Shown here: positions 26,986 through 50,451 of the stretch, piece by piece
Position numbering within the stretch: the stretch's first letter is position 1
Layout: each line of letters opens with the position of its first letter
Assembly (NCBI GenBank): GCA_051294905.1
Contig: CM119372.1
Span: forward strand, 23,314,001 to 23,374,000
Direction: 5' to 3'
Length of the DNA stretch: 60,000 bases
Source: Botryllus schlosseri
Lineage: Eukaryota
Position numbers and translations under genes: made by a program
The notes under the pieces: model-generated
Database searches by the model: none
Seen by the model: the letters and a program-made list of their open reading frames with translations, nothing else
What the model was told of the DNA's origin: nothing

Positions 26986-27158
26986 TGCGTAATTTGCGTA
27001 TATTTGCCTCGTACTATATTCCATGCATGGTCGGCATATTCTATAAATCAATGCATCGTGTATGTATGGGCGAATAATGATAATAATAAAACGTAAAGAA
27101 GGTTTTCCCAATAAATGATGTGTATTCTGCTTGAGAAAATATCGAAGTTCATACGTAC

Positions 27159-27308
27159 TCTTTCTGCAAACACCCGAGAAAATGTTAAGAACCAATTCGT
27201 CAATGTCTCTCTGCGTCTTCAACACCTTTCCGGATAACGGGTGAATGCAGTGACATATCGATGCATGATCACATTTAACTGGAGCGAAATAACCATTTGC
27301 ATCGCAGG
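27159..27308 (-). CDS. Gene A exon 6: thyroglobulin type-1 domain, C-terminal part
   Basis: (S)CDANGYFAPVKCDHASICHCIHPLSGKVLKTQRDIDELVLNIFSGVCRK; acceptor tttttcag; putative donor gtacgt. Confidence 0.85.
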
Positions 27309-30300
27309 CTGAAAAACATGCCTTCTATGATTTATCTGCTACGTTCAAGGCGAGACCCGGCTGCGCATGAAATTGCTTCCGCGATTCGTTTCTGGTCACA
27401 ACCTGGGTTGCATTTAAAACAAAAATCAATTTAAAACAAACATGTTTAAAACATGGCCCTAACTCAAAACAAGGTTTTTATTGTTGTTTTTTTAAGCCAT
27501 GACGTCATGAATATTCAATTATGACATCATATTGTATTGACATTGTCAATTGAAAATACAGGGTAAATATATCGCTTATTTGGCGAAATATCTGTACTAT
27601 TAATGTTGAACTGACAATTTTGAGGGTTCCGACTATCCCATATCGATATACGTCGGCTATATCGGGTGGTAATTGTCCGTAGGCTCATAAAACATGTTTT
27701 TTCGAAAGTATTTACACAATTATGGCATAATTTTACAACTTGAAAAAAAAACAATTTTTTTTAATAAGGGCTTTTGTTTAAAACACCGTTTGTTTTAAAT
27801 GCAACCCTAAACTAGGGTTGCCATACATCCGGAATTTCGCAGTAGAAACTGCGTCCGGGAGGAAATTTTAAAATATGCCCAAATGTCCGGAATTTTGAAG
27901 GCTTGAAGTAGGCTAAAAATATAACAACATAAAAATACAACATAAAAATTTAGTTTTAAGCAGATTTATGCTATTCGAAAAAATTTTTCGCGATGCGCGC
28001 GATTTAATACTACGTATACTGATATTAATATGGGGACCACGCACCGCCCTCGCAAAAAGTGCATTCAAAAATAAATAAAAATAACCATCATTTGCTGAAA
28101 TAAGTCTAATTGTAATAGCAATTATATAATAACGGTATATTCCTAGAGTTGGTTAAGGCCATTTGGATGTTTTAGTTTAGTCAAAAACAATTGTTCTGAA
28201 CCTGGGGGTCGGTTGCCTTTATTCTAGAGATCGCGAAGATGTTGAACGTCATCAGTTTCCAAAATAGGCCGTGAGTAAGTCTGGGCAAGCTAACTCTTTT
28301 ATTAATCAGCCTATCATTTTTTGAGTTGGACCACGGAAAATTTTCAAATTTGAAATGAGCTCGCGGCCATAAAAGGTTGGAAACCACCGGATGTGTAGCC
28401 TACTGGTGTATTTTATAGTAATATGTTGAAGAGCCAATATTATTGACAAGAATTCATTCACAGATTTTAACAAGCAGATGGATATTCTACGGTAAGCCCG
28501 CAAGAAGTTGCATCAACTACCCTATGGTGGGCTTACGATTGGTACTTTTATGGGCGGAAGTGGACTGCTTTTAAAGTCGCCGCGCACAGAGAAAAACGTG
28601 TACCGCGCACAAGAAAGCTGTAGTGATGACCCTTTTTTTAGTTGTTGCGCACTGTTGTTCAAGGGACCGCGCAGTGAGTTGGTGAGTGCGCGCAGACTCA
28701 TGAAAAATTAGAGGGAACATTGGTTAGCCTACAATACACAACCAGATAACCGCACCGAACTAACAGCAGAGGTGGTTAAAGTAGTCAAGAAAGCTATTCA
28801 AGTAGAAGTAGAAGTAGTGACGAAAAATCTATCCAAGTACGAGTGGAAGTACTTCTTCCATAAGCCCCCTAAAACTACTTGAAGTAGAAGTAGAATTGAC
28901 CGACTTTAAATCTACTCAAGTAGTTTTGAAAACAGTCTTAATTCGTTCGCATGGACTGTCAAAAGCTGCAAATTGAGCTATGCGGAAGGTGCAGAGAGCT
29001 TGATTGGTATTGATGCATCCCATGAGGTATCAATTTTCGACAGAATAAGCATTCTTTCGCACCATGGGATGCAAATTATAGTATTGATATGAAAATGCGA
29101 TACTAACCCTTTGTTTACTAGATGACCACGTTTTAGAGAACATCATGGCATGGCGCCCTGCCCCATATTATAAGGCTCCAAGTTTAGGTGAAGAGCAATA
29201 CGGAGAAGTTGTACCGGATACGGTTTCAACACTGTGCGCGATTATTATACGTTAATAACAAATATTTTGGATCGTAAAATTTATATTTAGAGTAGCTTTA
29301 TTTTCAGAAAATAGAGGCATTACTACAGTTGCTTTTATTCTTCAATATGTATGTTCTACAGACAAAAGAACTGAAAGTAATTAGAACTCAAAGTATGATA
29401 TTCGGAATTGAAACTGAAATACAAATACCACTTCTAAAAAGCGGAAAATATATTTCATGTCTTTTGTCCATAAAGCTTCAAAGGTGATCTTATAAAACAG
29501 GTGTAACGTTAAAAAAAGCCGGATTTTCCTGATTAGCAGGAGACGCCATGGGCTGCTAGATTACGATATGATAGATAATTGCTAGATTGCGAAACGGTGG
29601 CCATATTTACTGTGATGAAATATTTGATATCGGCGACAATGCGGTGTGAACGGAACCAAGCAATCCGGTACCTAAATTATATTCAGTGATACTTTCGTGA
29701 AAATATATTTGTCACTCCATAACTACTGTACGCGAAGTGCAACAAAATTTTCTGACTTTTCTTGACTCTAATGAATATTAGATGTTGGCACTCCGTGAAA
29801 GCAGCTCCGAAATTCCTCAGGATATATTTTGTATTTGGGGAATAAACTACTTTTACTTGACAAACTGAAAATAGCGAAAAGTAAGTAAGTAGATCACAAA
29901 ATATTACGAATTAGAAGTAGCAAAAATCAGATCCACTTGAGTAAGTACCAGAAGTAGAGGAAAACTATGTGAGTACTTCCAAGAAGTAGAAATACTTCGT
30001 TACAGATCACCTCTGCCTAACAGTATAGCAGGCCTGTCAAACACACAACCGGCGGACCGGATAACGTCCACCATGCAGACGATTACATCCGACCGCGAAG
30101 AAATCTGTTGCAGACCCAAGTAATAACCAGAGCTCGCATTAGAGATGGCCCAATTCAAAACCTATGTTCCGCTCCGCTCCTGTACATTCGATGGGCGAAG
30201 CTTTGCTATAGTGTAACGTCATAATCAGCTAGTGGGCGCTATATTTTATCCACAAAAATATGGTAACCTTACCCTAAACGCAAAAGTTAATTCTCTCCGA

Positions 30301-33300
30301 AGAAGACTTGTCCCAATCCGCGGAATATCTTATGCAGTAGCCCAGGAATAGGGAACCCATGACTTAAATTTCAGTGATTTGAACACTTCAGATTAGACAG
30401 CATGCTAGCAATATACGTGAAGCACAAACACTTTGTATTAATTAAAATAATACCAATTCACTCACAAGGTCGTTCTCTATCAGTGAGTACAAAGTCCCGG
30501 CCTTCGGTGTTCTCAAAAGATGCTATTAGAGCTCTCATGCAAGGAGTATCAACAGGAGGCGGTGAGGGCACTGGTGGTGTGGGTCTTTCCGGCAGCGTCA
30601 CAGCACTAACAATGAAAACGTCGTTAAGGCCGGAACGAAAAACTGACATCTCGGTTGCATCGCACAGTACCAATTTAGAAATCATATTTCATTCACAGTG
30701 TGCGTTTACACTGAGCTTATAATTCAAGAATATGGTGGGCAGTCGTCAATACCAGGATCGCTTCCACAGCTTATTTGACATAACCGGAGATATAGGACGT
30801 TATCATCCCTCCCAAGCACGCTGAAGAGAATATGACAACGGAAAGCTTCGAACTTCTTACAGTTCGTTAAATATAGCCCCACCAGGTGAAGTTCAGCTTT
30901 TCCTCGTCTGATTTGTCAAGACAGTCGTCAACGCCGTCGCACAAATACGCACTCGGTAAGCAAGACTCCCCGCGCGATGTGTTGCACGAATATGTGTAGA
31001 CACTGCAATCTGTCAAAGTCAGGCGTTTATCTATGGGCAGGAACCCTCATAGCCTATTTAATGCTGTCAGCAGAGTATCTTTAAAGGCCCATAGGAAGAC
31101 ATCAACCATACAAATCCTCAGGAAAGACTAATAGATCGATACATGGACATCGAGTGGAGGGGGGTAATGTTACTGCGTGAAAACATGTTTAATAGCTTCT
31201 TGGAGGTATAGAACTTCAATATACAATTGACAAGCATATTCATATTGAAATGAACTCGAAAATTTTCGGCTGGAAAGTACATTGTATATCAACAATCGTA
31301 TCACATAATATGACGTCGCCGGCATGAAATTTCCAATAATCGGGGCGGAGAGAGCGCGAAGCGAGCGCGAAGCTCCAAATTGGAGCCTTGGAGTCGGCCA
31401 ATCAAGCATGTGCCTATAGACAGAGTTTGTGTGCCATCTAAAAATAGTAGCCTACATTAAGCTTAAGCGCTCTCTCCGCCCGATTATTCGAAATTTTATG
31501 CCGGTGACGTCATATTTTGTGATACGATGCTCTTTCCAATTCTCTACTATAGTTGCTGACGATTATCCCTGACGAGTGTCAGCCGAAAATATTCGGGTTC
31601 ATTTCAAGTACATGGTTAATATTATAACAAATCCCACATGTAGAAACGAATGTATGAAACGAATATAAGAATATACTTTCTCATATCATATCTAAAACTA
31701 ATCAAGTAATTGCAGAAAATTTCTACTTCGCATTGCCAGCAATAATATCCAGGCTGTAGGCCCAACGGCATAGGGCAGTAATCGGGAACCTTCAGCGTAT
31801 AAAGAGCCATTTAAACCCATTTTCAGTCATATAAGATCATCCGAGTCGCAAACTCTAGTGAGCCGATCCGACGTCTTATGGAAATGGTCGAAACTCCATT
31901 GTAAGAATAACACCTCTTCGAATCTTCCAAGCTTAGGCTACAGTGTGCTGGCTGCTGATGTTGTCGACGCTAACACAGGATAGATACCGGAATCATCAGC
32001 AAATAATAAATGGAATATATGCATTATGCAATCTCAATATGCGTTTATGCGTTTCGGTTTCGCTCATTTATTTTAAATCTTAATGGTGATAGGCAACGAG
32101 CGCTGATGAGAATCGTTCTATGGTAATACCAAGAATTGTTCCGCGAAGCTGGAAGAAAATTGTCAAGTTCAATAAACCTGTCCCGAAAGTTATTATTGTA
32201 TTGCAAGAAAGTCGACTGATAGCCCACTGATAGCCTGAACGACCAGAAGAAGATGAAGTGTCACGGGCTATGACCTCGCGAGGGACAAGAGGCAAAGGGA
32301 AAGCACTGACTCTGAAGATTATATCCAGCCAACCAGAAGGTTCAATAGCTACTAGGGTGAAATAAAGGGAACGGACTCGTGTATCAGCTGCGGCAGGCCG
32401 ATTGCATTCTCGAACCAAAGCTCGGTATGTACCTGTATGCAATGTCAAACTGAAAATTGTATTATGCAGGCGTTCTGCAACACGAAAGATCAATTCATCG
32501 TGACGGGCGAACAATTAACTAACAATACAACAATAATCTGCGGGACCTGCAAAAGCGAATGCCAAATATCTAGCTGCTGTGGTAACCTAATCCGAAATGA
32601 GGATGCCAAGTTTTACAAATCGTGCGCAAGGTGCACGAAATCGAAGAGGCAAAAGTCCGCAAACATTAACAAGTAACGTTCATTATGGCAGGTCCGAATA
32701 TTTTTAAGATACTAACAATCAATGTCAACGGAATGAGTCTAGACAGTAAAAGAGAACTAATATTTAAATAAATTAAGGACACAGGCGCCGACATAATTTG
32801 TCTGCAAGAAACGCACTCCACCCTGGATACTGAAAGAACTTGGGCTGCAGAATGGAAGGGAAAGTCATTTTGCAATTCCGGAAACGGGAAAACGGCAGGA
32901 ACAGCAGTTCTACTAACGCACAGAAGGAAATCATACAGAACACTGAACCAGACGATGGATACGGAAGGAAGAATACTACTAATCCGAATCAAGTCATGTA
33001 AAATCAATCTCACTATCACTAACGTATACGGTCACAATAACAGAACAAAAAGAAGAGCACTCTTGCGTCAACTCGCAACAAGAATAAGCAGGAAAGAACG
33101 GCACGACAGCTGCTAACTCGACCGCGAACCGCCCAACATAACAAGACTTGGAGAAGACGCCCGATACAATCGCTCAGTAATGAGGACCATAGGAGTGACC
33201 GACGCATTTCGTGACACAAATGGGGATAAAAAAGACTACACATATTTCTACCTTAAGGAAAGTCCAGATTGGACAGGATCTACACCTCGAAAGGTATAAT

Positions 33301-36300
33301 ACCTCTAAATTGCAAACATATAACCTGCACCCTTACAGACCACGACGCGGTGACTGCGACCTTGCGCGTAAAAGGAAAGAGTCCGAGGCCTATAATTCAT
33401 GGAAGAATAACACACAAATATACGAAAAGGAGGCGTTCCAAAATGACTTCCAAGTAAAATGGCGAAGATGGAAGACGCTGCATCCAGCCCAGGAATATAT
33501 AGAAGTTCTATATATCCCTGATCCAGCCATATACGAAACAAAAATCGAATGGTGGAAAGCCGTCAAGAGGAAATCAAAGCACCTCGCTGTGAGACACGCA
33601 GGGGAAACCCTAAAAGAAAAGCAGATCATCAGATTGAAGGAGGAGAAAGAGCTCGAAGAGGTAAGACAAAATGTTCTACGAAATAACATCTCTGAACATC
33701 TCTTCCATACAGAAAAATAAAGAAGAAAATATGGAAGAGGAAAGCGGGAGAGCTATCCAAGCTTCAGGCGGAAGCAAAAGCCTAGCGAGAAACGATCCTG
33801 GACAACAATCCTTACTTCCTTTGTCAGACTATAAGGAAGAGGAAGGAGGCGGTGAACATCGAAGAACTAAAAGACGCAAATGGAACAACAACCTCGGATG
33901 ACGAACAAATAAGAACAATCATCGAAAAATACTACACTGAGCTATACGGTGAGAAACAAACAAACCAACCAACAAACTGCAAGTAGTTTTCTCAGGTATC
34001 AGAAAAAACAGCTAACGATGTAACAGCAGGAGAAAATAGACGCTCCCATCACCGAAGATGAGGTCCGTTTAGCCATTGCACAACAAAACAGGAATCGAAC
34101 TCCGGGGGAGGATGGGATCAGCGTGGAATTATAAATTGAGAACAGAGACACAATAGCCGAAGATTTGACCAACGTGTTCAATGAAATTTACACTACGCAG
34201 GAAGTATCGAGCGGCCTCGCAAGAGGAATTCTTAAAGGTCATTTACAAGAACGGTGATGCAAAAAAATATAGAAAATTACAGACCAATAACACTTTTGAA
34301 CTGTGACTATGAAATACTAAGCAAAATTCTTTCCAACAGAGTAAAGGCGGCGCTGCCGAACATCACGCATCGGCGCTGCCGAACATCACGCATTCGTAAA
34401 CCAGCCCAACACCATTGGGCAGCTGAGCCTCTTGATCAGGGAAGCAGCATCAGAAATGAGATCCAAAGAACAAGGCGCGATAATATCTATCGATTTCAAA
34501 AAGGCATACGACACGGTAGATCACAATTACCTACAGGAAGCACTAAAAGCGGCAGGCTTCGGGTCAACCTTTCGTGAATTCTACCGGCAAGTATACGAAA
34601 AGAGCAAATCGCGAGTTGGAGGGAGAATTGGTAACGAAATAGAAATTCAGACGGGAATTAAACAAGGCGAACCTATTTCCATGTATCTGTTCACCATTGT
34701 CACCGAATCTTTGTTACAGAGCCTCAACCAGAACCTAGCCGGGTACAAACTGACCGGACTCAGGAACAGAATCACCACCCCGGCGTACGCCGATGACGTG
34801 ACAATAACGCTGGCGAAAGTACAAGATTGCGAAAAGGCCGTGCGCATCATCACCCATTTCGGAAAAGCAAGCGGACTACAAATTAATTGGGAAAAAAACA
34901 AAAGGAATAAAATTTGGAGCAGAAGGCCAGTACAATACAACATAACGGCGATCAAATGAGCCGATGAGGTTAGTATATTAGGAGCAACAATAGCCCACAA
35001 ATTGCAAGCAACGGAACAGCAATGGGAAGCGGCAATTGACAAAACAGATCGAAGCATTCAAGAACTGAAAAAGATGAAATTTCAAAGGTATGAAAAAATA
35101 GAACTAACAAGGACCAATATTCTTCCTTTGTTCGCATATTACGCCACCACCTCGAGAATGCCGAAGGACCTGAAGACCAAACTGAGAGGACTCATTATGT
35201 CATTCCTGTTCGGCATGGAGAAGAAGGGGGATTACAACTAGACAATTCAAAAGGAGTAGATCGGAGGGCTAGGCTTGACCGATATACCAAGAATCAAGGA
35301 TCTCATCTTCATCAAGCCTGCGATCCAGTATTTAAAAGACTCGGGGAAAAACACAGAGACAGAAAATGACGGAAGATTGGAGCACCAGCTGGCAATCATC
35401 CTCAACAGGAACAGAAAAAAACAAATTACCTAATAACAGACCTCATGCATTTCAGCCGCAACCACACTGGGTGGAAGTGAACGAAACAATGAGGGAACTG
35501 GGAACCCTGGACGCAGACTACGAAAAAGGAAGTTCGAAGGACACATACCGGGCGACAATCGCAAGGCAACACAGAAGGGAAATCATGGACATGGAAGGCC
35601 CGAGCTGGAAGAACGTACGGGCAAAATACCTCACGCGAAAGCAAAGAGACTTCAACTGGGATGCGGCGCATCAAATACTTCCAACCATGGATAAGTTGAA
35701 CGCACGCCTGGTCACACCAACATGTAAGTGTGTGCTCTGCGAAATCCGAAGTGAATCTCATGTCCATATTTTTACCCAGTGTGATACAATTACACCAGTT
35801 CTAAACCTCATTTTAGGAGCGTGGGAACAAGTCACGGCAAATACCGAACAAAGAGCGAACATGCAGACCATACTTCATATGGCACATAAACGACCAATCA
35901 GGGAAGGCCATGAGCGAACTCTAATGATTCCAATCTCTATGTTCAAACAGGCGATATGGACTGGAAGAAACAAGAAGCTACACGAGACGCGCAAGATAGA
36001 TCGCCAGTGGCTGCTGAATTCCTTCAAGCGGAGAATAACGATGAGGAAACCGATCCCGCAAGACCCGCAGCTAGAAAACATCATCTCGAACATAAAGAAC
36101 AACATAATGGGGTGCACCTTCCGATGAAGCGAAGCGAAATTGAAATTCGGAATTATTGAGTTTATGAAATTTGAGTGTTGTGCCTTCTTACCGCTATGTG
36201 CTTTCCATTGTGGAATTTAACATACCATAAGAGCGTAATCAACAAAATGTAGCTTTCGAATAATAGCGAACGTGAAATCGCGGATCGGTAGGCCTATACA

Positions 36301-38458
36301 TTCGTAGTTGTTGTACTCGCAACTTCATACCAGTGATGACATCAATGTTCTTTATGGTGCGAAATGGTCTCGGTTGATAAACTGAAATCTCGTATAAAGT
36401 CCCTGGTTCCAAAACATCCCCGGTATTGATGTAGTAGTAGCCGTCGGCTTGTCGGTCTCTCTTTCCTTTCAGATTTTTAGTGTATGCGGCTTGTACGTCA
36501 GCAAGAAACTATAAGCACAAAAATGAATAACAAAAAAGTTCAGTCACAATCTAGAAAATTTTCAGTCGGCCAACTCGCGGAAAACCGTCCGCACCTCGGC
36601 AAAATGCACACAGTCAGAGCTCGTGAAATCTAAAATCCAAGCGATATTGACCGCCCGCTCACCACCAAATAAATACTTTCAGGCCATTTGCCGCTGTCAG
36701 TATTCCGAGCCTATTCCGACGACGATTTACCGATAGATTCGCAACTGCCTCTAGCCAATACAGTTATCCCTCAATGTCGTTAAATAGGCTGTACATCGGC
36801 CCTAACACCACATATACATACCAGTTGAGGAAAGTTGTTTATGCCGACATAGTGCGAAAGGCGTCAAATCACAAATTACCAAGCCAAATGCCCAGAGAAA
36901 GTGCTGGAATTTGAAAATGCGACCATCATAATTATGAGCCAGTATCAAAATTTGTTACTATTCCTTCCTTCGATAATCCAATTTCTTCAACGATCATCAT
37001 CATCATCATTGGTTTATTAGCAATTTTATCAGTTCAATACACCACAAAAAATGCGATACAATGAAAAGACAGGAAGATGTCGAAGCGACAAAGAGCAGTC
37101 TATGGAATCTGACACCCACCTTGGCCTAGGCGATGTAAAGAGGAGGCATGCACACTGAATGAAAGTAAAGAAGATAGTATAGAAAAAAGAAAGCGACAAT
37201 AAATAGGGCGGCATGTCATGGGAAGCGAGATCGATAGGTCAGTCGTGGTCCGGTAATCTTGAGGATGGACTGTATTTATTTAGTAGTAATTGCTTGTATT
37301 TCGACTTGAATGTGGACATAGCCTACTCGTCGACTGTCGGATGGCCGGCGGGATACTGTTCCACACATCAGGTCCGGCATATTTGATAGAGCGATGATCT
37401 TTTCGGTCGATCATATGATATTTGGACGACGTGGACGCGCGTGTGTTGTACTTGTGTGCACGATAGCCTATTCGCAGCAAATTTTTACGTTACGGCCTAT
37501 CATAACTCCGGGTAATTCCATTCTTACTTTGACTTGGACGTTGACGAGGTACTTGCTGACTTTGCGCAGATGTCTGAAGCGAGCTTGGATCGAGGTCTGA
37601 TTTTTCTGCGCAAGACACAATGTACAGACATCAACATTGTAGAATTTATATGCATTTGAAAGGTTCGGGAACGGACGCAGTCTCTGTCATTTTCTATGCA
37701 AATGTGAGCCCGGATTCAGCCATCTATGAGAGGCATCATATCGAATAATAAAATGGTCTCCTTCTTCTCGGAAGACAAATATTTCCGGTAGTGATTACGC
37801 GTCACATATTCAATGCCACTACTCACGAACAACGGACATTAGGGTTGTTCAAAAAATTACTTTTTTTTTCAAGCTTCACTCGCTTAGTGATAAAATTGTC
37901 ATGTTGCCTAAAAAACGCTACACACCAAATTTGGGTCAATTCCGACCAGTAAAGACCGTGCAATCTTAAATTGAAATTTCGGCCATTTTTAAATTTATAG
38001 TATTTACGGTGAAAAATTTTGGCACTTCGATATGACTAAATATCGTGTTCCAGGTATGCCTGAAGGGAAAGTGATGCTTTTTTCACGGGTTTACATCTTT
38101 CTAACCTCAATTTGGTGTGTAGCGTTTTTTTTTTAGGCAACCTGACAATTTCATCACTAAGCGGATGAAATTTGGAAAAAAAAGTTATTTTTGAACAATC
38201 CTATTGGACATTGACGCCATCCGTTGAATTTAATCGCGATGGCGGTATCAAATTGAAGTCAAGCTTTAGCCCTATTGATATCATTTGATATATTTATAAA
38301 CCGTTGTCATAAGTCTACGAAACCCCTATTTTAAATCTAAATCAGAATATTACCGATAATATTTCAATCTGGAATTGATCGTCTGTCCGCCACGGTTTCC
38401 ATGCATCAACGGTCATAGTAAGCAGACAGCAGAAGACCGCGAAATGTAAAACACTCAT
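27159..38458 (-). CDS. Gene A (spliced): secreted FN3-like / LDLa / Pro-rich / thyroglobulin type-1 protein; 3' end unresolved
   Basis: Exons 38354-38458, 37528-37605, 36331-36508, 30883-31009, 30466-30605, 27159-27308; all GT-AG and in frame; four exon lengths (78/178/127/150) identical to paralogue B. Confidence 0.85.
28767..30015. mobile_element. hAT-type element with CAGAGGTG termini and AGTAGA subterminal repeats (intronic)
   Basis: TSD ACTAACAG/CCTAACAG (7/8); related to the 266-bp MITEs at 44049 and 46269. Confidence 0.75.
30466..30605 (-). CDS. Gene A exon 5: Pro-rich linker and start of thyroglobulin type-1 domain
   Basis: AVTLPERPTPPVPSPPPVDTPCMRALIASFENTEGRDFVLTDRERP; ttag acceptor, gtgagt donor. 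Confidence 0.85.
30883..31009 (-). CDS. Gene A exon 4: LDL-receptor class A repeat
   Basis: DCSVYTYSCNTSRGESCLPSAYLCDGVDDCLDKSDEEKLNFT(C); canonical C..CDG..DC.D.SDE motif. Confidence 0.9.
31243..31610. mobile_element. Palindromic MITE (intronic)
   Basis: Inverted arms TGAAATGAACTCGAAAATTTTCGGCTG...ATATGACGTCGCCGGCATGAAATTTC versus their reverse complement at ~31465-31610. Confidence 0.65.
32150..36200 (+). mobile_element. Decayed L1/Tx1-clade LINE retrotransposon in an intron of gene A (antisense); boundaries approximate
   Basis: ORF2 from ATG 32685: APE endonuclease (KILTINVNG, DIICLQETH), RT (NYRPITLLNCDY, SIDFKKAYDTVDH, GIKQG, YADD), C-terminal C..C...H...C zinc finger; stop at 36127. 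Confidence 0.92.
32685..36127 (+). pseudogene. LINE ORF2 (endonuclease-reverse transcriptase), disrupted
   Basis: Split across track ORFs 33211, 34254, 34432, 35002 and 35366 by frameshifts and stops. Confidence 0.9.
36331..36508 (-). CDS. Gene A exon 3: FN3-like domain, C-terminal half
   Basis: FLADVQAAYTKNLKGKRDRQADGYYYINTGDVLEPGTLYEISVYQPRPFRTIKNIDVIT; L.PGT.Y.ISV is the FN3 tyrosine-corner motif. Confidence 0.85.
36990..37490 (-). mobile_element. 5'-truncated CR1/L2-group LINE 3' end with (ATG)n tail
   Basis: HKYNTR...RSIKYAGPDVWNSIP resembles the ORF2 C-terminus of this group; 3' UTR shared with 53070-53240; (CAT)n at ~36994-37010. Confidence 0.7.
37528..37605 (-). CDS. Gene A exon 2: FN3-like N-terminal strands
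   Basis: KNQTSIQARFRHLRKVSKYLVNVQVK; gcag acceptor, gtaaga donor; 78 bp as in paralogue B. Confidence 0.85.
37840..38203. mobile_element. MITE with TAGGGTTGTTCAAAAA termini, largely palindromic
   Basis: Inverted termini; imperfect TSD ACGGACAT/TTGGACAT; relatives at 55536-56404 and ~57370-57850. Confidence 0.7.
38354..38458 (-). CDS. Gene A exon 1: start codon and signal peptide
   Basis: MSVLHFAVFCCLLTMTVDAWKPWRTDDQFQIEILS followed by gtaata donor. Confidence 0.8.
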
Positions 38459-38625
38459 ATCATATATATGTAGGCTACTTCAAAATCTACAGAAATACTC
38501 ATCCAAGTTGTTTCATCTACTCAATCCGCAGTTCTTAAAGTTCATGCATTCCACAAAGTTACGTATGTTCCGTGCACAAGGCATGCGTAAGGCTCGGTCA
38601 TTCCTAACGTGATCCAGTTAAATTA

Positions 38626-39900: not shown

Positions 39901-39959
39901 AGCATAAATGGCTGAAAGCATCGGCCTAGACTAGATCGATACCAATACCTTTTTCTCAA

Positions 39960-41050
39960 TAATTCAATTGAGCCCATGGCTACATAACTTATTATATGGT
40001 AAAAGCGTGGATTTTTATATGGTATGAAAGAGTAGTATGACTCCGATAATATCTTCTACTGATATAGACTATGCTTGAATTAGCATTATGACATCAAGTC
40101 ATGCCATACGTTCGCGTTCACGGCGATCCTGTTATAAATGCACAATTGCTCAATGCTCAAGTTCACACGAACCATAGCCTTTTAGGGGTCATAACTATCG
40201 CAAAGATTTGCTATTTCCGATCGAAAGCGTAACATCATCCTTTGGTTATTGTTGAATCCCAATTACTGACCGAACAGGTACTTCGTACGATAGGCGATGT
40301 GAAGTCATTTAAATACTATTAATCTCATCATTGAACTACTTAATGGTTTGTTCTGATCAGCATAATATTGATCCTTCCTATAGCGAAATGGATGAGCGAG
40401 TAATACACAAACCTCGGATTGCTGCCTGCCCAAGACATCGACAAATTAACTAAGCGAGTAATTGTCTTTGTCAGAATTTCACCAACTTCCACCTGTTCAC
40501 GATAACGTATACGGTGGTTGTACAAGCCTCTGTAAAAGTGATCAGATCTCGCCTCTCATATTTTGATTTCACTTACAAGCGACCTAACAACTCATACTAC
40601 CGCAAACTTTTACCTTCGGTCTCTTGCCCATTTTATTTAATTATTTCCTGTATCTTCTCATTCAATGTGAATGGTATTACTGAGCACACGTTCCTTTTCA
40701 CCTTCGTTTATCTTATTCTAATTGCAGATGATGTGGAATTTTGATACAACCATTTACGCCAAATGGTCACCAATTGTTCCTATTGGTCATTGCGTCGCTA
40801 CCTTTGCAATGACAAAGATGCGGTTTATGTTGAAACTCAATTTCTATGGTGTTCCATTAAGTGCAATAAGGCGACAATATCAATATATCACTATCAATTT
40901 TTCCATCGCAACTTTAGCAAACTTTAAACAGGGCGTCACAAGCCACGGGTCAACCAAGTTATAGCGTGAAATCCTGGGTTTCAAGAATGTTATATGTTCC
41001 CGTTGTTTGCTTGTTTGTTGTTTGCTGCTGATTGCAACAATAATAACACG
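39960..41050 (-). mobile_element. Possible highly decayed non-LTR retrotransposon fragment
   Basis: Only scattered degenerate words resembling RLE-type LINE motifs (TGRKW-like, GR.GLG-like, WRHD-like); no open frame. Confidence 0.3.
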
Positions 41051-41439
41051 ATATTATCTTGAATTGATGAAAACGCAGACACTCTGAACACGCTTATGTC
41101 ATGAAGCCAACACTAACAGGGTAGTCTCGTTATTTTGGCAGATTTTGTACAGGTATATATGCGGTTATTCATAAGATTTAATGCATGTGGTGCTGATGAT
41201 TGCCTAAAAAGGTTTCTTTTTTACTGGGTCGAGTAAGGGGAATTCAAGCAGCGGGGGGTGGCGGAGGAGGCTCCTCAAACCCTGCATCACTCAGCGGCTC
41301 ATCTTCACCTTTGATCGCATCAGTCAAAATCTGTTGTGATTCTGCAATGGAATCATATGAAATTTAGCGTTAACATGAGCTTACATGGTTATAGTTCGCG
41401 TGTGTGAATTGTTAATTAAGTATGGATCATATATATATA

Positions 41440-41483
41440 TGTATTGTATATGTTTGTATGTGTGTATGTGTGTGTGTGTGTGC

Positions 41484-41553
<70 letters not shown>

Positions 41554-41593
41554 GCGTGTGTGTGTGTGTGTGTGCGTGTGTGTGTGTGTGTGT
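41440..41593. repeat. (TG)n microsatellite
   Basis: ~150 bp of imperfect TG dinucleotide repeat. Confidence 0.98.
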
Positions 41594-41917: not shown

Positions 41918-44461
41918 CAGGGCTTCGGAGCCGGAGCCGGAGCCCCGGAGCCGTGCATTTTTACCGGAGCTGGAGCCGGAGCCGGAGCTCTACATAAAAT
42001 TCAGCCGGAGCCGGAGCCGGAGCTGGAGCCAGTTATTTGAGGGGTAGCTCCGGCTCCGACGTGTTTCATTAGATGCTATTATATATGCAACAACCATATC
42101 TGCTGGGTTCACATAATTCAACAGCAGGCCTTCGCGCGAAATTAAGAATCTTTTCTTTTTTGGCGCTACCTTTTCCGACTAACCATGTTCCTGGGGATTT
42201 AGCAGCAGAGCAGTCATATGTTCAATTTTCATACATAAGTGCCGAACCTCGGTATGCGAAATATGTCTATGAATATTGTGGGTATTCGGCATACCCGCAA
42301 TTTCATCGTCAGCGCAACCTTGTTGGCCAATTGTACGGTTCGGAAATAATGATTGCTATGTATTACGCGAAATGGGAGAGAGGATAAAAACGTGATTTCG
42401 TTGCACATGTCGATATGATGAGCACGAGCCCAGAAATTCCATCTCTTCGTTGCTATGAATCGAATGAGCAAATACTCGTTCTTTCGTGATAGTTCTTTAA
42501 TCGGGCCGCGAAATTGGACAGTGTTATTGAGTATGCAATTATGCATGCGGATTGGAATTCATTACTGCGCATGATCGTCATTCACTCCAGTAAGGATTTT
42601 GGAGCGTGAATAGGGGACGGCAGAAGAGTAGGCCAAAACGCAGTTACATTCAGCAAACAATTGTCGCGGTGCGTGCTACTCAATGCGATGTCATGGTACT
42701 TTATGTTGGAGACAAATTACTGATTTGATACGCTATTTCCAATTTGTAATCATCTGTTTCGTAAATTCATTCTTGATGTCTGCTTGATACTCTAGTATTC
42801 CCGGATTATCGCGCACTGTGACTTGTAAATGTGCAATGTGCATACTGCATAGTTTAATTCGTTATGGGCATGGCGCAATGTGCATGGCACAGTGTTTAAT
42901 TCGATTATTCGCTTCGTTTCAACGGGAAAATATTATATTCCGATAAACTTGATCGACACCGGATGGACCGGTAACGAGTGCACCAATATCGAACATCAAG
43001 CCATTGGCCATTTGGTAAAAATCGAATTTCTGTTGATCAGGTCGTGATGTCCGCCCATATTGCTCTTACTACAGTTACAGTTGAATATTAATCGCTTATT
43101 TAAAGATTGAATTGAGCTGTATGGCTGAATGTTAAGGAGTACAGTGCCAGTGTGAAAACGCCGCATCAGAATATTCATACTGTACAGTGTACACCGCAAT
43201 CGCATTGAGTAAAGTGCGTTCTCGTTCTATAGTGCAACTATGATGTTATCGACAATTGACAAGTATTCATTATGACGTCACAAGCCGACACGGGTAAATT
43301 ACCTACGGGTAAATTAGTAATCCATATACACCAGGAGTGGCCAACCTTTTTGGCTAAAGGGCCACATGAAATTGACGAACGAATGCGCTGCCCACTAACT
43401 GCGCCAAGCGCGTAAAATTTTCAAAGTTAATATTTTTATTACTCTGGTATATTTCGGGTCGACTGTATACCGCCCGCTGGGCTCAGTTTGCAAGGACTGA
43501 ACTATTCAGCATCTGGACATATCGATATCGAAGATTTCCGCTAATATACGACAATCATTTTGTGCCTACATTTGATCGTCCACGATCTTTCTGCGAGCGC
43601 AAACGCGAATATACTTTCTCTCGTAATTGCGAATATATATAGTTAGACTCAATCGGCTAAATCAGGCGTTTTTTTCATTTTCAGGAGGGGGTAGGCTACA
43701 AAGCAAGAAAACGTATGACAATTAAACACGCGAAGAGTGAAGAAAAATTTTATTACACTTTTAGTTTATTGTGATGTACGACGATTTACTAAAAATGTGA
43801 CTGGACCCTGGATCTGTCAATGCGTCGGAACTGATATTTTAGTCATCAACATCCCAAGTGTCGCGGCCAGACAAATCATATTTTTGTTTGGCCTTGCAAG
43901 TTCACAATCTGAGCAATTCAATTTCGATAATATAACAGGATCTCGATAATATAATGGGAAATTAGCTCGCGGGCTACTCAAAACCTTCTTGCTGGCCACA
44001 TATGGCCCGCAGGCCGTGGGTTGCCCACCCTTGATATAGACAGACACCCAGAGGTGGTCAGTAACGAAGTACTTCTACTTTTTGAAGTACTTGAAGTAGA
44101 TTTTGCTTACTCAAACTACTTTTTAAGTAGTTATGATCTTAAACTACTTCTACTTCTACTTTACAGTTTTCCGTTTTGTAGGCAAAAATAAGCGTAGAAT
44201 ATCTACTTACTTACTTACTTGTGAACCCCCACTCCTACTTCTACTTGAGTAGAAATTTCAGCGTTACTTCTACTTCTACTTGAGTAGCGGCGGTGACTAC
44301 TTTGACCACCTCTGCAGACACCTTCCATAGTTTTCAGAGCCGGAGCCGGAGCAGTGGTAATAATGCGGCTCCGGAGCTGGAGCCGGGGCTAATGTATGAT
44401 AGAAGAAAGCTCCGGAGCCGGAGCTGGAGCAATGCAAATTTACTGCTGCTCCAGAGCCCTG
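41918..44461. mobile_element. hAT-type non-autonomous element with CAGGGCT termini and (GGAGCC)n subterminal arrays, with nested MITEs
   Basis: TSD GTTGTTTC/GTTGTATC (7/8); nested elements at 43332-44033 and 44049-44314; inverted partial copy from 54485. Confidence 0.8.
44049..44314 (+). mobile_element. 266-bp MITE (CAGAGGTGGTCA termini)
   Basis: Perfect 8-bp TSD CAGACACC; close copy at 46269-46534. Confidence 0.9.
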
Positions 44462-44806
44462 GTTGTATCAGTATAACTTGACCTGTGCCCGCTGCTGCCC
44501 TGGTAGTGAATTCTCAATCCACAAATACACTCAATACAGTTATTCAGATACGTCATTGTCGTAGGTAGCGTAAAAGAGTCGCATATCTTAGAACCTTGGA
44601 AACCAGTTTATAAACTCAGGGTACATCATGCAATAATGAGAGAATATCGAAGTATGAAGTACGTTACCATGATATGGTGAGTAGTAGGCCGATCATGTGT
44701 ATCAGATATATTGCGTTAATGGGACCAGGAGTCCGACACAATATGAAGCTACGATTGATTGCCATCTTCTAATGTCCAAACATCTAAAACTTCGTAATGA
44801 ACCTAC

Positions 44807-44956
44807 TTTTTCGGCAGAAATCTGAAAAATCCCAATGCACGAAAGGATGGTAATCGGTCTGCGTTTTCAGTATTTCCCCGGTTAATGGATGGATGCAATG
44901 GCAGTTGGATAGAGAATCACATTTCATCTGTTCATAATGTCCATCCCTACCACAAT
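44807..44956 (-). CDS. Gene B exon 6: thyroglobulin type-1 domain, C-terminal part
   Basis: (Y)CGRDGHYEQMKCDSLSNCHCIHPLTGEILKTQTDYHPFVHWDFSDFCRK; tttccag acceptor. Confidence 0.87.
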
Positions 44957-47900
44957 CTGGAAAGTGTAACAATTACTCCATGAGATAATCCGCGTAATGT
45001 ATAAGGAATAAGTTTATAACTAAAGTTTGCCACATCCCTACTCGGATTGAAAAGTATGTAAGTCGGTATATATAAGCACATCCAAAAACCATTGAATTAT
45101 AGAAAAATAAGATATAAAGTCCTAGTTGAATCAGTTGATGTGATGAAAGAATAATTCGTTTTTCAAAATTATGGTTTTTGATCAATTCCAAATTGGATAG
45201 AACATTTCCGAATTCAGAATAAAAATATATTGTCATAGATAACTGCAATGGCGTGTTGATTTTCAATTAATTCCAATATTTAGAAGACAATTCATCCTTT
45301 TCCTCATAGGTCTCCATAAAAGGCAGTCTACAGTAAGGATCCAATATTGTCACGAACCACGTGAAGGCATTTCTTATTTCAACCAGAATACATAATTGGG
45401 TGATAGAGCCACATACTTCGATTTAGAAATGATGCTGATATTTTGTAACGAAAAACACCGTTAAACTTACTGTCATAAATTTCAAGTATAATTCTTCCAT
45501 TGATAGAAAATCGTATCGAAAATGGTTCCTTGAAACGCGTTACTTACACGGGCGGTCCATGTACCTAACATCTGATCCATTACTTCCCGAATTCTCCAAA
45601 ACTGCTGCCAACGCCATCATGCACGGTGTGTCCGAAGGAGGCGGGGGCGGAGCTGGTCTCCGCGGCAACTTTACAGCGCTGAATTTGATGGTAAAATTGT
45701 CAAATAGCAAAAAATATGTATTGCTTATTGACCCACTTCTCGACATCAGAGTTTCAGAAATACAATGTATTGTAAACGTGTGAATGGTTATAATTTCGGT
45801 TTAATATCTCTCGCATCTGAGGAATCCAGATGTTACATTTTTGTTACATCTTTTGTCTACGGAAGTCTGAGCCTCTGCGGCTAAAATGCAAATTCGGTAT
45901 CGTCGTCTAAAAAGCAAAGTCAAACAGGCCTATAGATGCGGTATCAAATGACGATTGGCTTATCCACAGAAAATTGCATTTACAGCTATAAGATGCTACG
46001 TCAATACAAATTAGCCAGCTCTGCCTAAATGACGCGATTTAGGGAAGTCCTTTGAAAGATTTCGCGAGGGCAACGTTGCAATGAAACTCAAGATGTTATT
46101 CTGACTTTGCTCCACTTTGAAAATGATCTCAGGGCAGGCATGGGCAATGTCAACACTTGATAATACTGGGATACAGGACAATAGGTGACTAATGACTGTA
46201 ATAGCTATACGTCGTTGCCTTGTCATACACAACCCCTGGAAATATCCCTTTCAATTCTTATCAGTAACCAGAGGTGGTCAGTAACGAAGTTCTTCTACTT
46301 TTTGAAGTACTTGAAGTAGATTTTGCCTACTCAAACTACTTTTTAAGTAGTTCTGATTTTAGACTACTTCTACTTCTACTTGACAGTTTTCAGTTTTCTA
46401 GGCAAAAATAAGCGTAGAATGCCTACTTACTTACTTACTTCTGAACAACCACTCCTACTTCTACTTGAGTAGAAATTCCGGCGTTACTTCTACTTCTACT
46501 TGAGTAGCCACGGTGACTACTTTGACCACCTCTGTCAGTAACTCATTTAAACCTGCATTGGTTTTCAAGAGTTGACAAATCTTAAGTACCAAGTTGAGTT
46601 GATCTTTTCCTCGTCGGAGTCGTCGAGACAATCAGCGAAATCATCACATAGCTGCGTAAATGATAAACAAGCTGCGCCGTGAATTGCCTCGCAAGAATAT
46701 GTGTATTCGTCGCAATCTGAAGAATATGTACATGGGATCACTCATGTTGGCCTCGAAACGGATGATATTACCCCTAACCCAGACAGTTCATATCCGTAAC
46801 AACTCGTTCTAATGCTGAATCGACGACAAGAAGCACAGTAAATAAAAGCATATAGTGATGCTGACAATGGCGGTCCAATTCTAATATTACCAAGACGCTT
46901 GGAATTGTATGGATTGGATGGCAAGGAAAGTCTTCTGTAATTTGCGAAGATGCGGCGGGCGTCGATGGCGTCGAAAGAAATTGAACATGTAATACAATCA
47001 ATAAGCAGGGATATCTAGTTCTAGATATCCCTGTCAATAAGTGCAGTGGCGTAGCAGCCACTTGGCGGTTCTGGCTCTGCGCCAGGGGCGGCAGGCTCCA
47101 AGGGGGCAGCAAAATGAGGCTGCACAGTGAGACAGAGAGATATGGTATTCTTTTTCGCCTGCACCATCGAGATGCTTTGACGACGGAGATGCAATACGCA
47201 GGACCGTAACTGCCGCACCCCAAACCCCCCAATTGGAGGGGCGAGCTCGAAGGGGGCCCAAAATTATTTCGTGAATTAGCATTTTGAAAAAAATTTCGCG
47301 TTACGTGCGATTTCAAGGTGCCAAATATAATGATTATTTGGTACTCTTCCCCCAAGAAAAGAGCACGCAATATTTTTAGACATGGACATATCGGCGTTGG
47401 CCAATACCGCGACACGACGCACCAAGACATATAACGATTTAGGACATATTACATGCGACTCCAAGAAGTGTGCTAGAACTATCGCCATAGCGTAAAAACC
47501 TTGACCGAAAAGGACTGCCCTTACGGTTACGCTGACCGAAAACTGCATCATATATACAAAGTACATATAGCTTTAATTGTCCTCAGCCTAGGCGCCTAAA
47601 TGACTGGCGCCGAATGTTCCTGTCTTGGCAATCTGAACCTCAAAAGACTAATTCCATCCCGCAGGGAAAAAATATACGCCAGTGAAGAAAAACCAATTTG
47701 AAATCGTGTGCGTCTTTTAGTTAAATACGTTTGCCGATTCTATATTTTTTGATGTAGCAGACAGGAGGTCACGAAATAACATCATGTAACGAAGTCGTAC
47801 CAACGGGTCCGCCCGCCGAAGATGTTTAATTATTATTTACCGGCCCTACAGTTTCCAAGACACCTCACCCAGCTCTACCGGTAAATCTGATAAAGTGAGC

Positions 47901-50451
47901 AGAGAGGACAAGAAAATGATAGCAATATATGCAATTCCCGATCTTATTGACCGATTTTATCATTATCTATGTAAAATTTTTGCGCTTAGCGCTGGCTCAC
48001 TAAACAGCACGGCTAATTTCGTGGAAAAAGCGATCAACACGATGGTGGGGTGAGGTGGGGTGGGGTTTATCACCCTATGGGAGCCTAAGACCCAAGTTTT
48101 TATGGGGCCTGACGAAGTGCTGTTTCGTTCCTGTCAACGGGTATGCGCCCGAAGATGTTTAATTATTATTGAGGGGTCCTACCTTTTCAAATAGGGGAGA
48201 TGTGGTACCGATGGATCACTGGGACCGAAAATACTTTGAAAATTCTCTATGATAATTCCATGATTACACTCCGTGAACTTGTCTACAATTGCATGCTAGC
48301 AACATCTTTCCTCACATACAAAAAAATTCGACGTGCGCGAACTATGGGGTCTCTTACAGATGTTTTTTGTTTTAGGGGGTGTAAACTAAATTTAGATCGA
48401 CATATACATTTTTCTTTGTAACCTCCAACACGAACAAACCAGCAATCATTTTTATTGTGAAGTCTAGGGCTTGTATCAGGCTATATAATGGAAACTATTA
48501 TTTTTTTCAGTACTTTCCTTGAGTGGAATTTTTTTCGAATCATGTACAAAATTAGTAGGGTGGGGACCGATGATACAATAGCCAAATCAAGCAGAATAAT
48601 CAAGCATACTAATCATGAAACAAATGAAACATGACTACGTACAGAAAATCTTTATGTAATAATTGCATATGATGTTTTATCGCTATAACGAGGTCTTTGG
48701 AAGTCACACTGTCGATTTTCGGGCAATATGTATGTAGCCTCAAATTTAAAAGTCTGAGCCTGAATCAAAACGTGATTTTATGACAACATTTGAGTCAATA
48801 TTTAATCTATTTTTGGACGGTTGCGACTGAAAATTCTTCTTTGGCTTGCTGTAGCTTAGATTATAATACTGAGCAAGAAAAGTTGTCACATCTGCGTTTT
48901 TTAGGGTATATGTGTCATAGGTCCCCGGGTCGTGGGCCATTGGACCCACCGGGTGGGGACCGATGACACGTTCGAGCAACAAATTTTAAACGTCTATAAA
49001 TATTTTTTGAAAAGACGGATATTCATGTATATGTGCGCAATAGGTAGAGCTTGTATCAAAGTGCTGAGCCAGCAAAAGATCTGCTGTTTTCGGCTGAACA
49101 TTTTGGGGCCAGCGATCATTTTCCAATTTTTGATCCATCGGTACCACATCTCCCCTACATCTCACTCAGCTCTACCGGTAAATCTGAGTACTTCAGCAGA
49201 AGGGGATGAAAATTGATAGAAATATATATGCAATCCCCGATGATACTGACCGATTCAATCATGAATTCTTTAAATTTTTCGCGCTTGGCGCGTCTAGGCG
49301 AGTGTGGATACAGTGGTTAGTTAATGCAAAGCTACTTGATTCGACACCATATTCATGCTCGTGTCTGAAACTTTATCTGGCCATTGGTGTTTCAATTGCG
49401 AGGTGTGTGAGGAGCTTCTCAAAGCTTAAACTGATTAAATCTTATTTACGTTCTACCAGGAATGATGATCGGCTATCCGCTCTATGCCTTCTGTCTATAT
49501 GGAAAGAGACTACTTTCAAAAACTTGAATTTGGGGATATTATCGCTGATTTTGCTTTGAGGCGGCAATTGATTTTCTATTTTCACAATACATTCGTTCGC
49601 TATTTCTTGTCTTTATTATTTTTGGCCTTATTAACGTTGAGGCGGCGAGGCTGAGACGCGGCATATTATTTGTAATTATTTTTATTGACAAGATTGTTTG
49701 AACATGAATATATGTCGAAATTTGTTGCGGTCTAGCTAGGGGGGCGGCATTTTAAGCGAGAGCCAGGGGAGGCAGCACATGCTGCTACGCCAGTGAATAA
49801 GTGTCCTTACCGGTAAATACATCGACTGTTTTGATTAGTCGACGTCTTCTCAGCCGATAAACCGATAATTCATGGAGGGTCCCAGCATTCAAGACGGGTC
49901 CCGTATCGATATAATAGTAACCATCGCTGGCTCTGTCTCTCTTTCGTTTCAGCGTTTCAGCGTAGGGGGACCTTGCGTCCGCCAAATACTGCAGATATAG
50001 TCCGTCAATTGAATGATGTATGGCTACTTCGTAAATTTTGTAATTATTCCCACCTTAACGCTCACGCTGACGGAGTATTTCCAGACATGTCGCAGCTGCC
50101 GAAAGCGAGCTTGAATAGATGTGCTGTTCTTCTGTAAGAAATCAGGAACCGTAATCAATGGTTCGAAATCATCCACAACGACGTAGGCTATATACCGGTA
50201 TCCAAGTATCGATATATATTTGTCGAATTAATTGATATTTTTAATCTTCCATGCCTGCGTGAAACCTTGAAGTCACGCAAATGCTGAGTAGAATGTGCCA
50301 GTGTGCCACGTTTCACTATTATCTAAATTGCGAAATCTCTCACCGATATAATTTCAATCTCGAATTTCTTCTCGCTGAGCCAGGGTCTTTTTGAGGCCGC
50401 TGTAATAGCGGCAAATACGCAGCAAACGGCAACGAAACGTAGCGTAACCAT
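44807..50451 (-). CDS. Gene B (spliced): paralogue of gene A, secreted FN3-like / LDLa / Pro-rich / thyroglobulin type-1 protein; 3' end unresolved (read-through stop at 44784)
   Basis: Exons 50344-50451, 50054-50131, 49811-49988, 46590-46716, 45548-45678, 44807-44956; GT-AG introns; in frame for ~257 aa. Confidence 0.87.
45548..45678 (-). CDS. Gene B exon 5: Pro-rich linker and start of thyroglobulin domain
   Basis: AVKLPRRPAPPPPPSDTPCMMALAAVLENSGSNGSDVRYMDRP; ttcag acceptor, gtaagt donor. Confidence 0.87.
46269..46534 (+). mobile_element. 266-bp MITE (CAGAGGTGGTCA termini), intronic
   Basis: Perfect 8-bp TSD TCAGTAAC. Confidence 0.9.
46590..46716 (-). CDS. Gene B exon 4: LDL-receptor class A repeat
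   Basis: DCDEYTYSCEAIHGAACLSFTQLCDDFADCLDDSDEEKINST(C). Confidence 0.9.
47044..49795 (+). mobile_element. Decayed hAT transposon in intron 3 of gene B
   Basis: TIRs CAGTGGCGTAGCAGC / GCTGCTACGCCAGTG; perfect TSD AATAAGTG; hAT C-terminal dimerisation motif (RSFSKLKLIKSYLRST...RLSAL) at ~49380-49500. Confidence 0.88.
48194..49155. mobile_element. Tc1/mariner-pogo-type non-autonomous element nested in the hAT
   Basis: TIRs GGGGAGATGTGGTACCGATGGATCA / TGATCCATCGGTACCACATCTCCCC flanked by TA on both sides. Confidence 0.8.
49811..49988 (-). CDS. Gene B exon 3: FN3-like domain, C-terminal half
   Basis: YLADARSPYAETLKRKRDRASDGYYYIDTGPVLNAGTLHELSVYRLRRRRLIKTVDVFT; ctgcag acceptor, gtaagg donor. Confidence 0.87.
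50054..50131 (-). CDS. Gene B exon 2
   Basis: KNSTSIQARFRQLRHVWKYSVSVSVK; ttacag acceptor, gtggga donor. Confidence 0.85.
50344..50451 (-). CDS. Gene B exon 1: start codon and signal peptide
   Basis: gccATGG context; MVTLRFVAVCCVFAAITAASKRPWLSEKKFEIEIIS; gtgaga donor. Confidence 0.85.

What the first reader, a model, noticed from the sequence alone, without database searches (positions are those of the whole stretch)
27159..50451. Hidden tandem pair of secreted genes with an unusual FN3-like + LDLa + poly-Pro + thyroglobulin-1 architecture
Seen: two six-exon minus-strand genes can be reconstructed by hand. They share identical intron phases, four identical exon lengths (78, 178, 127, 150 bp), signal peptides and conserved cysteines, although the proteins are substantially diverged. 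Known: LDLa is a Ca2+-dependent ligand-binding module, and thyroglobulin type-1 domains occur in cathepsin inhibitors (thyropins), IGFBPs, nidogen and SMOC. I do not recognise a named ~260-aa protein with this combination. Inference: a lineage-specific, exon-shuffled secreted family (protease regulation, matrix or immune recognition) expanding in tandem.
Basis: partly seen in the sequence, partly recalled or inferred. Interest (0 to 1): 0.72.

Follow-up and report, generated by a model that had tools for sequence, protein, structure and literature searches.

The report
Sea-squirt secreted FN3-LDLa-thyroglobulin gene pair
Two neighbouring sea-squirt genes encode small secreted proteins that join a fibronectin-type domain, an LDL-receptor module and a thyroglobulin-type domain, an undescribed combination that may act as an extracellular protease regulator but whose function is untested.

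Summary
The genes are real, but each has seven exons, not six. Gene A (289 aa) ends in an exon at 41341-41244. Gene B (302 aa) most likely ends at 206-76, beyond a 27-kb intron. Both read signal peptide - FN3 - LDLa - poly-Pro - thyroglobulin type-1 (Tg1) - tail, 54% identical through exon 6, dN 0.36, dS about 2.3. Four unnamed full-length relatives on 1.0-1.6 kb contigs and two uncharacterised Styela clava proteins share the architecture. One public contig joins B exons 5 and 6. A relative's model confirms the FN3 fold (Z 12, rmsd 1.8). Both Styela proteins are listed, undescribed, in a 2026 paper; one was recovered from endostyle lysate. So this is an old ascidian family and an old duplicate pair, not a fresh expansion; only some domain borders fit exon shuffling. 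Best guess at mechanism (0.4): a secreted thyropin-like cathepsin regulator held on sulfated glycans by a basic FN3 domain. Against it, the CWCV tryptophan is missing in 8 of 8 members, as is the LDLa ligand-binding tryptophan. The scan's earlier notes hold no match to this family.

The parts
50344..50451 (-). Gene A exon 1 (108 nt): start codon, signal peptide, first FN3 strand
50054..50131 (-). Gene A exon 2 (78 nt): FN3 strands, conserved N-glycosylation sequon
49811..49988 (-). Gene A exon 3 (178 nt): second half of the basic FN3 domain
46590..46716 (-). Gene A exon 4 (127 nt): LDLa module, four acidic calcium ligands kept, Gln at the ligand-binding aromatic position
45548..45678 (-). Gene A exon 5 (131 nt): end of sixth LDLa cysteine codon, poly-Pro linker, Tg1 helix with first cysteine
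44807..44956 (-). Gene A exon 6 (150 nt): rest of Tg1 domain, CHCI in place of CWCV
41244..41341 (-).
   Evidence: low read depth in 1 of 4 runs; junction not seen in reads
38354..38458 (-). Gene B exon 1 (105 nt): start codon, signal peptide, first FN3 strand
37528..37605 (-). Gene B exon 2 (78 nt): FN3 strands
36331..36508 (-). Gene B exon 3 (178 nt): second half of FN3
   Evidence: contig piece 36347-36501 in run X1
30883..31009 (-). Gene B exon 4 (127 nt): LDLa module, acidic ligands kept, Tyr at the aromatic position
30466..30605 (-). Gene B exon 5 (140 nt): poly-Pro linker and Tg1 helix
   Evidence: joined to exon 6 in X1 contig 1
27159..27308 (-). Gene B exon 6 (150 nt): rest of Tg1 domain
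76..206 (-). Probable gene B exon 7, coding part to TAA (131 nt): Pro-rich tail like those of A and the relatives; 26,952-nt intron 6 before it
   Evidence: best of 319 acceptors; junction inferred, not seen in reads

Best explanation
Identity (about 0.95): two old tandem paralogues of an ascidian family of soluble secreted glycoproteins of about 250-375 aa: signal peptide, FN3 domain, one LDLa module, poly-Pro spacer, one six-cysteine Tg1 domain, variable tail. Mechanism (about 0.4, inferred): a tethered thyropin-like regulator. The Lys/Arg-rich FN3 domain holds the protein on sulfated glycans of mucus, tunic or matrix; the calcium-bound LDLa packs against FN3 as a structural unit rather than a receptor-type ligand site; the stiff poly-Pro arm holds the Tg1 domain out, and its loops dampen secreted papain-like cathepsins. 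Shown: gene structure, splicing of one B junction, domain order, FN3 fold in a relative, purifying selection. Inferred: secretion, disulfide pairing, glycan binding, the protease target.
For: Gene models and dN 0.36 / dS 2.3. Six full-length relatives with all three domains, 25-60% identical to A. X1 contig of 747 nt joins B exon 5 (0 differences) to exon 6 (4 differences). AlphaFold model of relative P0004, pLDDT 83.8, matches fibronectin FN3 at Z 12.0, rmsd 1.8 over 83 residues. FN3 net charge +12 in A, +7 in B, +14 and +15 in P0001 and P0002. Six Tg1 cysteines and the Pro two residues before the second one in 8 of 8 members. Family profile hits thyroglobulin, saxiphilin, IGFBP-2 and p41 Tg1 domains. 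Invertebrate thyropins with atypical Tg1 domains do inhibit cathepsins and are modulated by glycosaminoglycans (PMC10889554, passages). The distant Styela member was detected as protein in endostyle lysate (PMC12992692).
Against: The CWCV signature is absent in 8 of 8 members (CHCI, CYCV, CHCM, CHCL, CECV), and the residue before the third cysteine is Gln in only 1 of 8. Saxiphilin's G-x-x-x-P before the second cysteine has no Gly at that place in A or B. Tg1 is only 'occasionally employed as an inhibitor' (PMC7863939, passages). The basic FN3 is not family-wide: net -2 in P0004 and -4 in P0010. No binding or inhibition was tested. Read depth on the exons is low, and no junction of gene A was tested with reads.
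Confidence: 0.4

Rival explanations
1. Non-inhibitory extracellular adaptor, like the Tg1 domains of nidogen: FN3-LDLa binds one matrix, mucus or tunic component and Tg1 another, so the protein cross-links or organises a secreted layer.
For: CWCV replaced in all members; inhibition not shown for nidogen, IGFBP or TROP2 Tg1 domains (PMC7863939); FN3 folds matched are mostly matrix and adhesion proteins; distant member found in endostyle lysate.
Against: No partner identified; a shared FN3 fold shows no function; a single small copy of each module is unlike most structural matrix proteins (own knowledge).
Confidence: 0.33
2. IGFBP-like carrier: the N-terminal FN3-LDLa head and the C-terminal Tg1 domain clamp a small signalling peptide (for example an insulin-like peptide) and control its availability.
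For: Same layout as IGFBPs (head, linker, terminal Tg1); the IGFBP-2 C-domain is the best hit made of a single Tg1 domain and covers profile positions 176-258, E 6.7e-08.
Against: No IGFBP N-terminal domain in Pfam scans; thyroglobulin and saxiphilin score higher; the LDLa lacks the Trp that binds ligand lysines in 8 of 8 members (PMC8239462).
Confidence: 0.12
3. Part of the endostyle iodination system: a small Tyr-bearing Tg1 protein that is iodinated or that protects the thyroglobulin-like precursor from proteolysis.
For: Sc.CG.S6.110 (P0010) came down with anti-bovine-thyroglobulin from endostyle; 13-14 Tyr in A and B.
Against: That pull-down took 10 of the 12 Styela Tg1 proteins, so it shows cross-reaction; the closer relative Sc.CG.S60.17 (P0005) was one of the two not taken; the demonstrated precursor is a 17-kb multi-Tg1 gene.
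Confidence: 0.07
4. The conserved poly-Pro stretch is a docking site (PRAD-like, as in PRiMA/ColQ, recalled) that anchors a cholinesterase-type oligomer.
For: R-P-[TA]-x-P-rich linker kept in 7 of 8 members; faint PRIMA1 Pfam matches, E 0.34 and 0.54, in 2 of 14 proteins scanned.
Against: Matches are far below the cut-off (about 11 bits against 38.6) and explained by composition; all 12 cysteines are accounted for by LDLa and Tg1, none is free; P0010 lacks the stretch.
Confidence: 0.03

Closest known systems
Styela clava uncharacterized protein LOC120345934 (XP_039271470; Sc.CG.S60.17)
   Same: Same full architecture and cysteine pattern; 43% identical to A and 39% to B over shared columns.
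   Different: Shorter Tg1 first loop and tail; only a database prediction; listed without description in Supplementary Dataset 3 of PMC12992692 and not among the ten proteins of its pull-down.
Styela clava uncharacterized protein LOC120327509 (XP_039249750; Sc.CG.S6.110)
   Same: FN3-like region, LDLa and Tg1 in the same order; detected as protein in endostyle lysate.
   Different: 25% identical; no poly-Pro linker; acidic FN3; long repeat tail.
Thyropins (MEROPS I31: p41 invariant-chain fragment, equistatin, saxiphilin, tick IrThy)
   Same: Six-cysteine type-1A Tg1 domain in a secreted protein.
   Different: No CWCV; combined with FN3 and LDLa, which none of the thyropins named in PMC10889554 or PMC7863939 is described as having; inhibition untested.
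IGF-binding proteins
   Same: About 250-300 aa, secreted, linker followed by a C-terminal Tg1 domain.
   Different: Head is FN3-LDLa, not the cysteine-rich IGFBP N-domain.
ScTG-like thyroid-hormone precursor (Sc.CG.S284.31, PMC12992692)
   Same: Ascidian secreted Tg1-domain protein.
   Different: Very large multi-Tg1 protein (17,373-nt coding sequence); here one Tg1 in a 290-300 aa protein.

Membership tests
Thyroglobulin type-1 domain (PF00086), type 1A | Score above the Pfam gathering cut-off | tested here: met
   Exon 6 alone: 21.7 (A) and 22.4 (B) against 20.6; P0002 41.3
Thyroglobulin type-1 domain (PF00086), type 1A | Six cysteines in Tg1 spacing | tested here: met
   8 of 8 full-length members; pairing itself inferred
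Thyroglobulin type-1 domain (PF00086), type 1A | CWCV signature | tested here: not met
   CHCI in A and B; Trp in 0 of 8 members; signature per PMC7863939
Thyropins (MEROPS I31) | Inhibition of papain-like or aspartic cathepsins | not testable with these tools
   Needs an enzyme assay
LDLa module (PF00057) | Six cysteines and four acidic calcium ligands | tested here: met
   D-D-D-E in A, B, P0002, P0005, P0010; one ligand changed in P0001, P0003, P0004; sixth cysteine 12-13 residues after the fifth. Pfam 36.1 for B, 21.5 (below 24.1) for A exon alone
LDLR-family ligand-binding repeats | Conserved Trp/Phe two residues before the fourth cysteine, usually in repeat doublets | tested here: not met
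   Gln in A, Tyr in B; Trp or Phe in 0 of 8, Tyr in 2 of 8; single module (position read from VLDLR alignment; rule from PMC8239462)
Fibronectin type III domain | Seven-stranded FN3 beta-sandwich | tested here: met
   In relative P0004 (42-44% identical to A and B): Z 12.0, rmsd 1.8, 83 residues to fibronectin; Foldseek top ten all FN3. A and B themselves were not folded
Fibronectin type III domain | Pfam fn3 sequence match | tested here: not met
   No fn3 match for the exon translations or for P0001-P0005, P0010; the domain is seen only by structure
IGFBP | N-terminal IGFBP (IB) domain | tested here: not met
   Absent from Pfam scans; N-terminal region is FN3 without cysteines in A and B
Thyroglobulin / TG-like hormone precursors | Large protein with many Tg1 repeats | tested here: not met
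   One Tg1 domain, 289-302 aa
Family of Styela LOC120345934 | Full-length homology with the same domain order | tested here: met
   43% and 39% identity, same 12-cysteine pattern

The most novel reading that the evidence does not exclude
An ascidian-invented, glycan-anchored protease guard: FN3, LDLa and a Tg1 domain that has lost the CWCV tryptophan were fused into a tethered cathepsin inhibitor that protects the endostyle mucus net or its iodinated proteins. It would be the first functionally defined FN3-LDLa-Tg1 protein and would show inhibition without the signature tryptophan.
Probability: 0.15. Interest if true: 0.6.

Novelty: new variant of a known kind. Interest (0 to 1): 0.37.

Why it matters
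It defines a conserved, undescribed secreted family in the sister group of vertebrates, built from three familiar modules in an order not found in the searches made here. It gives a small, expressible test of what a Tg1 domain needs in order to inhibit a cathepsin, and puts an architecture on two of the twelve Styela Tg1 proteins that a 2026 thyroid-hormone study listed but left aside. It does not open a new class of system: novel module orders are common in ascidian secreted proteins, and no function is shown.

Tried and rejected
First guess for B exon 7 at 25623: rejected; the X1 contig leaves at 27159 and X1 has no depth on 25300-25836, DNA likeness to A exon 7 was at background (25 against mean 21), and it scored -13 against the tails. 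Six-exon read-through models: possible on paper but the X1 contig ends its match exactly at the donor. Further copies in the window: none by tblastn or by domain profiles on six frames. Whole-genome copy count: no genome held. Run search: no RNA holder listed; five runs held a 0.04 share of the words of A exons 1-3, which is no evidence. In the lay the joint tables were crowded by intron repeats (15 of 187 joints shown, none a junction of these genes); X5 gave no listed exon piece and X12 almost no exon depth. ESM Atlas: no usable hit for P0001 or P0005, which shows neither absence nor novelty. First fold, 3-sequence alignment: pLDDT 46, not used. LDLa and Tg1 parts were barely tested by the fold searches. 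Profile search of the 90% library was crowded (8000 candidates) and missed known members. Literature: no paper holds the Styela accessions in its main text, none holds three of FN3/LDLa/thyroglobulin/ascidian or all of thyroglobulin type-1/LDLa/ascidian; searches listed no description of the family; subscription papers are not searched. No complex was predicted: no ascidian cathepsin was in hand and a Tg1-cathepsin pair would pass by likeness to a solved structure. Earlier scan notes: nothing by sequence, near place or words.

Full report
Observation. Splicing by coordinates gives two minus-strand genes with GT-AG introns in the same phases (0,0,1,2,1,1). Gene A: 50451-50344, 50131-50054, 49988-49811, 46716-46590, 45678-45548, 44956-44807. 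Gene B: 38458-38354, 37605-37528, 36508-36331, 31009-30883, 30605-30466, 27308-27159. Exons 2, 3, 4 and 6 have equal lengths (78, 178, 127, 150 nt), and 139 of 256 aligned residues are identical through exon 6; Nei-Gojobori dN is 0.36 and dS about 2.3, near saturation. Pfam finds LDLa on exon 4 and Thyroglobulin_1 on exon 6 of both, and nothing on exons 1-3 or 5. This is far beyond chance. No third copy lies in the window; no whole genome is held.

Correction: seven exons. Exon 6 ends at a GT in both genes. For A, an acceptor at 41341 gives an acidic Pro-rich tail and a 289-aa protein; it is the best of 87 candidates by gapped score against two relatives' tails and 4th by ungapped score. For B my first candidate (25623) was wrong: a 747-nt contig of run X1 lies on exon 5 (record 126-263, no difference), continues on exon 6 (266-415, 4 differences) and leaves at 27159, while X1 has no depth on 25300-25836. 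Of 319 candidate acceptors downstream, 206 stands alone (43 against mean -32, sd 16), giving a 131-nt exon to TAA at 76, a 302-aa protein and a 26,952-nt intron. This last junction is inferred, since 206 lay outside the stretch laid. The lay covered 25300-41400 only, so no junction of A was tested; the bin with A exon 7 has depth 0.61+2.2 in X8 and 0 in the other three runs. X1 is not on record as RNA, but the join across the intron shows a spliced molecule; a second X1 contig covers B exon 3.

Relatives. A two-row profile of exon 3 found one protein among 205 candidates, P0001 (281 aa, on a 1030-nt contig). It is a natural full-length sequence with the whole architecture, which supports the models independently. 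Searches with it found P0002 and P0003 (3 hits among 1384 candidates) and, among 33 hits in the 1.84-billion library, P0004, P0005, P0010 and five fragments. P0005 and P0010 are Styela clava 'uncharacterized protein' LOC120345934 and LOC120327509; the rest are unnamed. Identity to A is 54, 60, 46, 44, 43 and 25% for P0001-P0005 and P0010; B is 51% (made with the earlier tail of B). Profiles built from these eight find the family FN3 in none of the 26 other hits held (best 1.4 bits). Genomic fragments P0006 and P0007 read through an intron at the same FN3/LDLa border and stop at the same place after LDLa, so intron positions are conserved. The only named carrier is an ascidian; no Ciona, amphioxus or vertebrate protein was named among the members, within the reach of a single-sequence search. 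Notes of the scan on this genome also call it a sea squirt (unchecked). A is nearer P0002 and fragment P0011 (69% over 48 aa), B nearer fragment P0009 (75% over 53 aa), which suggests the duplication predates the split from those sources; tree support is only 81/82.

Anatomy. N-terminal hydrophobic stretch, no transmembrane segment. A model of P0004 from an 18-row alignment has mean pLDDT 83.8; residues 23-114 match fibronectin FN3 at Z 12.0, rmsd 1.8 over 83 residues, and the ten best Foldseek rows are FN3 domains. FN3 is strongly basic in A (+12), B (+7), P0001 and P0002, not in P0004 or P0010. The LDLa keeps six cysteines and, in A and B, all four acidic calcium ligands, but the aromatic residue that binds ligand lysines in LDLR-family repeats (PMC8239462, passages) is Gln in A, Tyr in B and Trp or Phe in 0 of 8 members. 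The Tg1 domain has six cysteines but CHCI for CWCV; Trp is absent in 8 of 8. All 12 cysteines can pair within the two modules. Exon shuffling is only partly visible: phase-1 introns mark the FN3/LDLa border and the end of Tg1, but the other domain borders fall inside exons.

Mechanism. Most likely (0.4) a secreted thyropin-like regulator tethered to sulfated glycans: FN3 as anchor, LDLa as calcium-stiffened spacer, poly-Pro arm, Tg1 as cathepsin-binding head. Basis: anatomy above, and that a tick thyropin with an atypical Tg1 inhibits cathepsins and is tuned by glycosaminoglycans (PMC10889554, passages). Against: the missing signature and the statement that Tg1 is only occasionally an inhibitor (PMC7863939, passages). 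Rivals: non-inhibitory matrix or mucus adaptor (0.33), IGFBP-like peptide carrier (0.12; IGFBP-2 C-domain E 6.7e-08, but no IGFBP head), part of endostyle iodination (0.07), PRAD-like anchor (0.03). That ascidians are rich in sulfated glycans, and the PRAD idea, are recalled, not from a call.

What is in print. PMC12992692 (read: abstract, introduction, first results, discussion; supplement rows by search) lists both Styela proteins among twelve Tg1 proteins: XP_039271470 is Sc.CG.S60.17 and XP_039249750 is Sc.CG.S6.110. The second was among ten proteins pulled from endostyle lysate with anti-bovine-thyroglobulin; the first was not. The parts read describe neither, and the legend of Supplementary Figure 1b names only signal peptides and Tg1 domains; the figure itself could not be seen. 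PMC13078365 (passages) adds nothing on the family. Searches found no description of an FN3-LDLa-Tg1 protein; the 2006 survey of the Tg1 superfamily by Novinec and colleagues was seen only as a reference and may bear on this.

Verdict. A real, old pair of paralogues from an undescribed ascidian secreted family with a new order of known modules; predicted relatives already stand in RefSeq. Function open and easy to test. Interest 0.37; new variant of a known kind.

Noticed in passing
window 6039-19776: A 13.7-kb foldback-type insertion inside the inferred intron 6 of gene B: two inverted arms of about 6.4 kb, 99.1% identical, with internal tandem repeats, a spacer of about 975 nt and an 8-bp target duplication (6031-6038 and 19777-19784), which argues for a real transposon rather than an assembly artefact.
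   Followed up: partly
window 13071-13364 (+): A 97-codon stop-free frame in the spacer of the foldback element; no significant Pfam match (best E 0.11).
   Followed up: partly
window about 32100-36130 (+): A broken LINE-type retrotransposon (endonuclease, RVT_1 and zf-RVT pieces in different frames) in intron 3 of gene B, opposite to the gene.
   Followed up: partly
window 22902-23851, 24079-25084 and 56700-58730: Copies of a roughly 1-kb element whose ends are rich in short GACTCGAGTCAAGTC-type repeats; the first two are 82% alike.
   Followed up: no
window 41451-41593; 44048-44314 and 46268-46534; 55895-56300: A (TG)n microsatellite in A intron 6, two 94% identical MITE-like copies in introns of A, and a 400-nt palindromic element; many small repeats in the introns draw most of the reads laid.
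   Followed up: no
P0010 (Styela clava XP_039249750), C-terminal third: The distant family member ends in about eight copies of a 12-residue Pro/Lys/Asp-rich unit, and the two RefSeq versions differ by two units.
   Followed up: no
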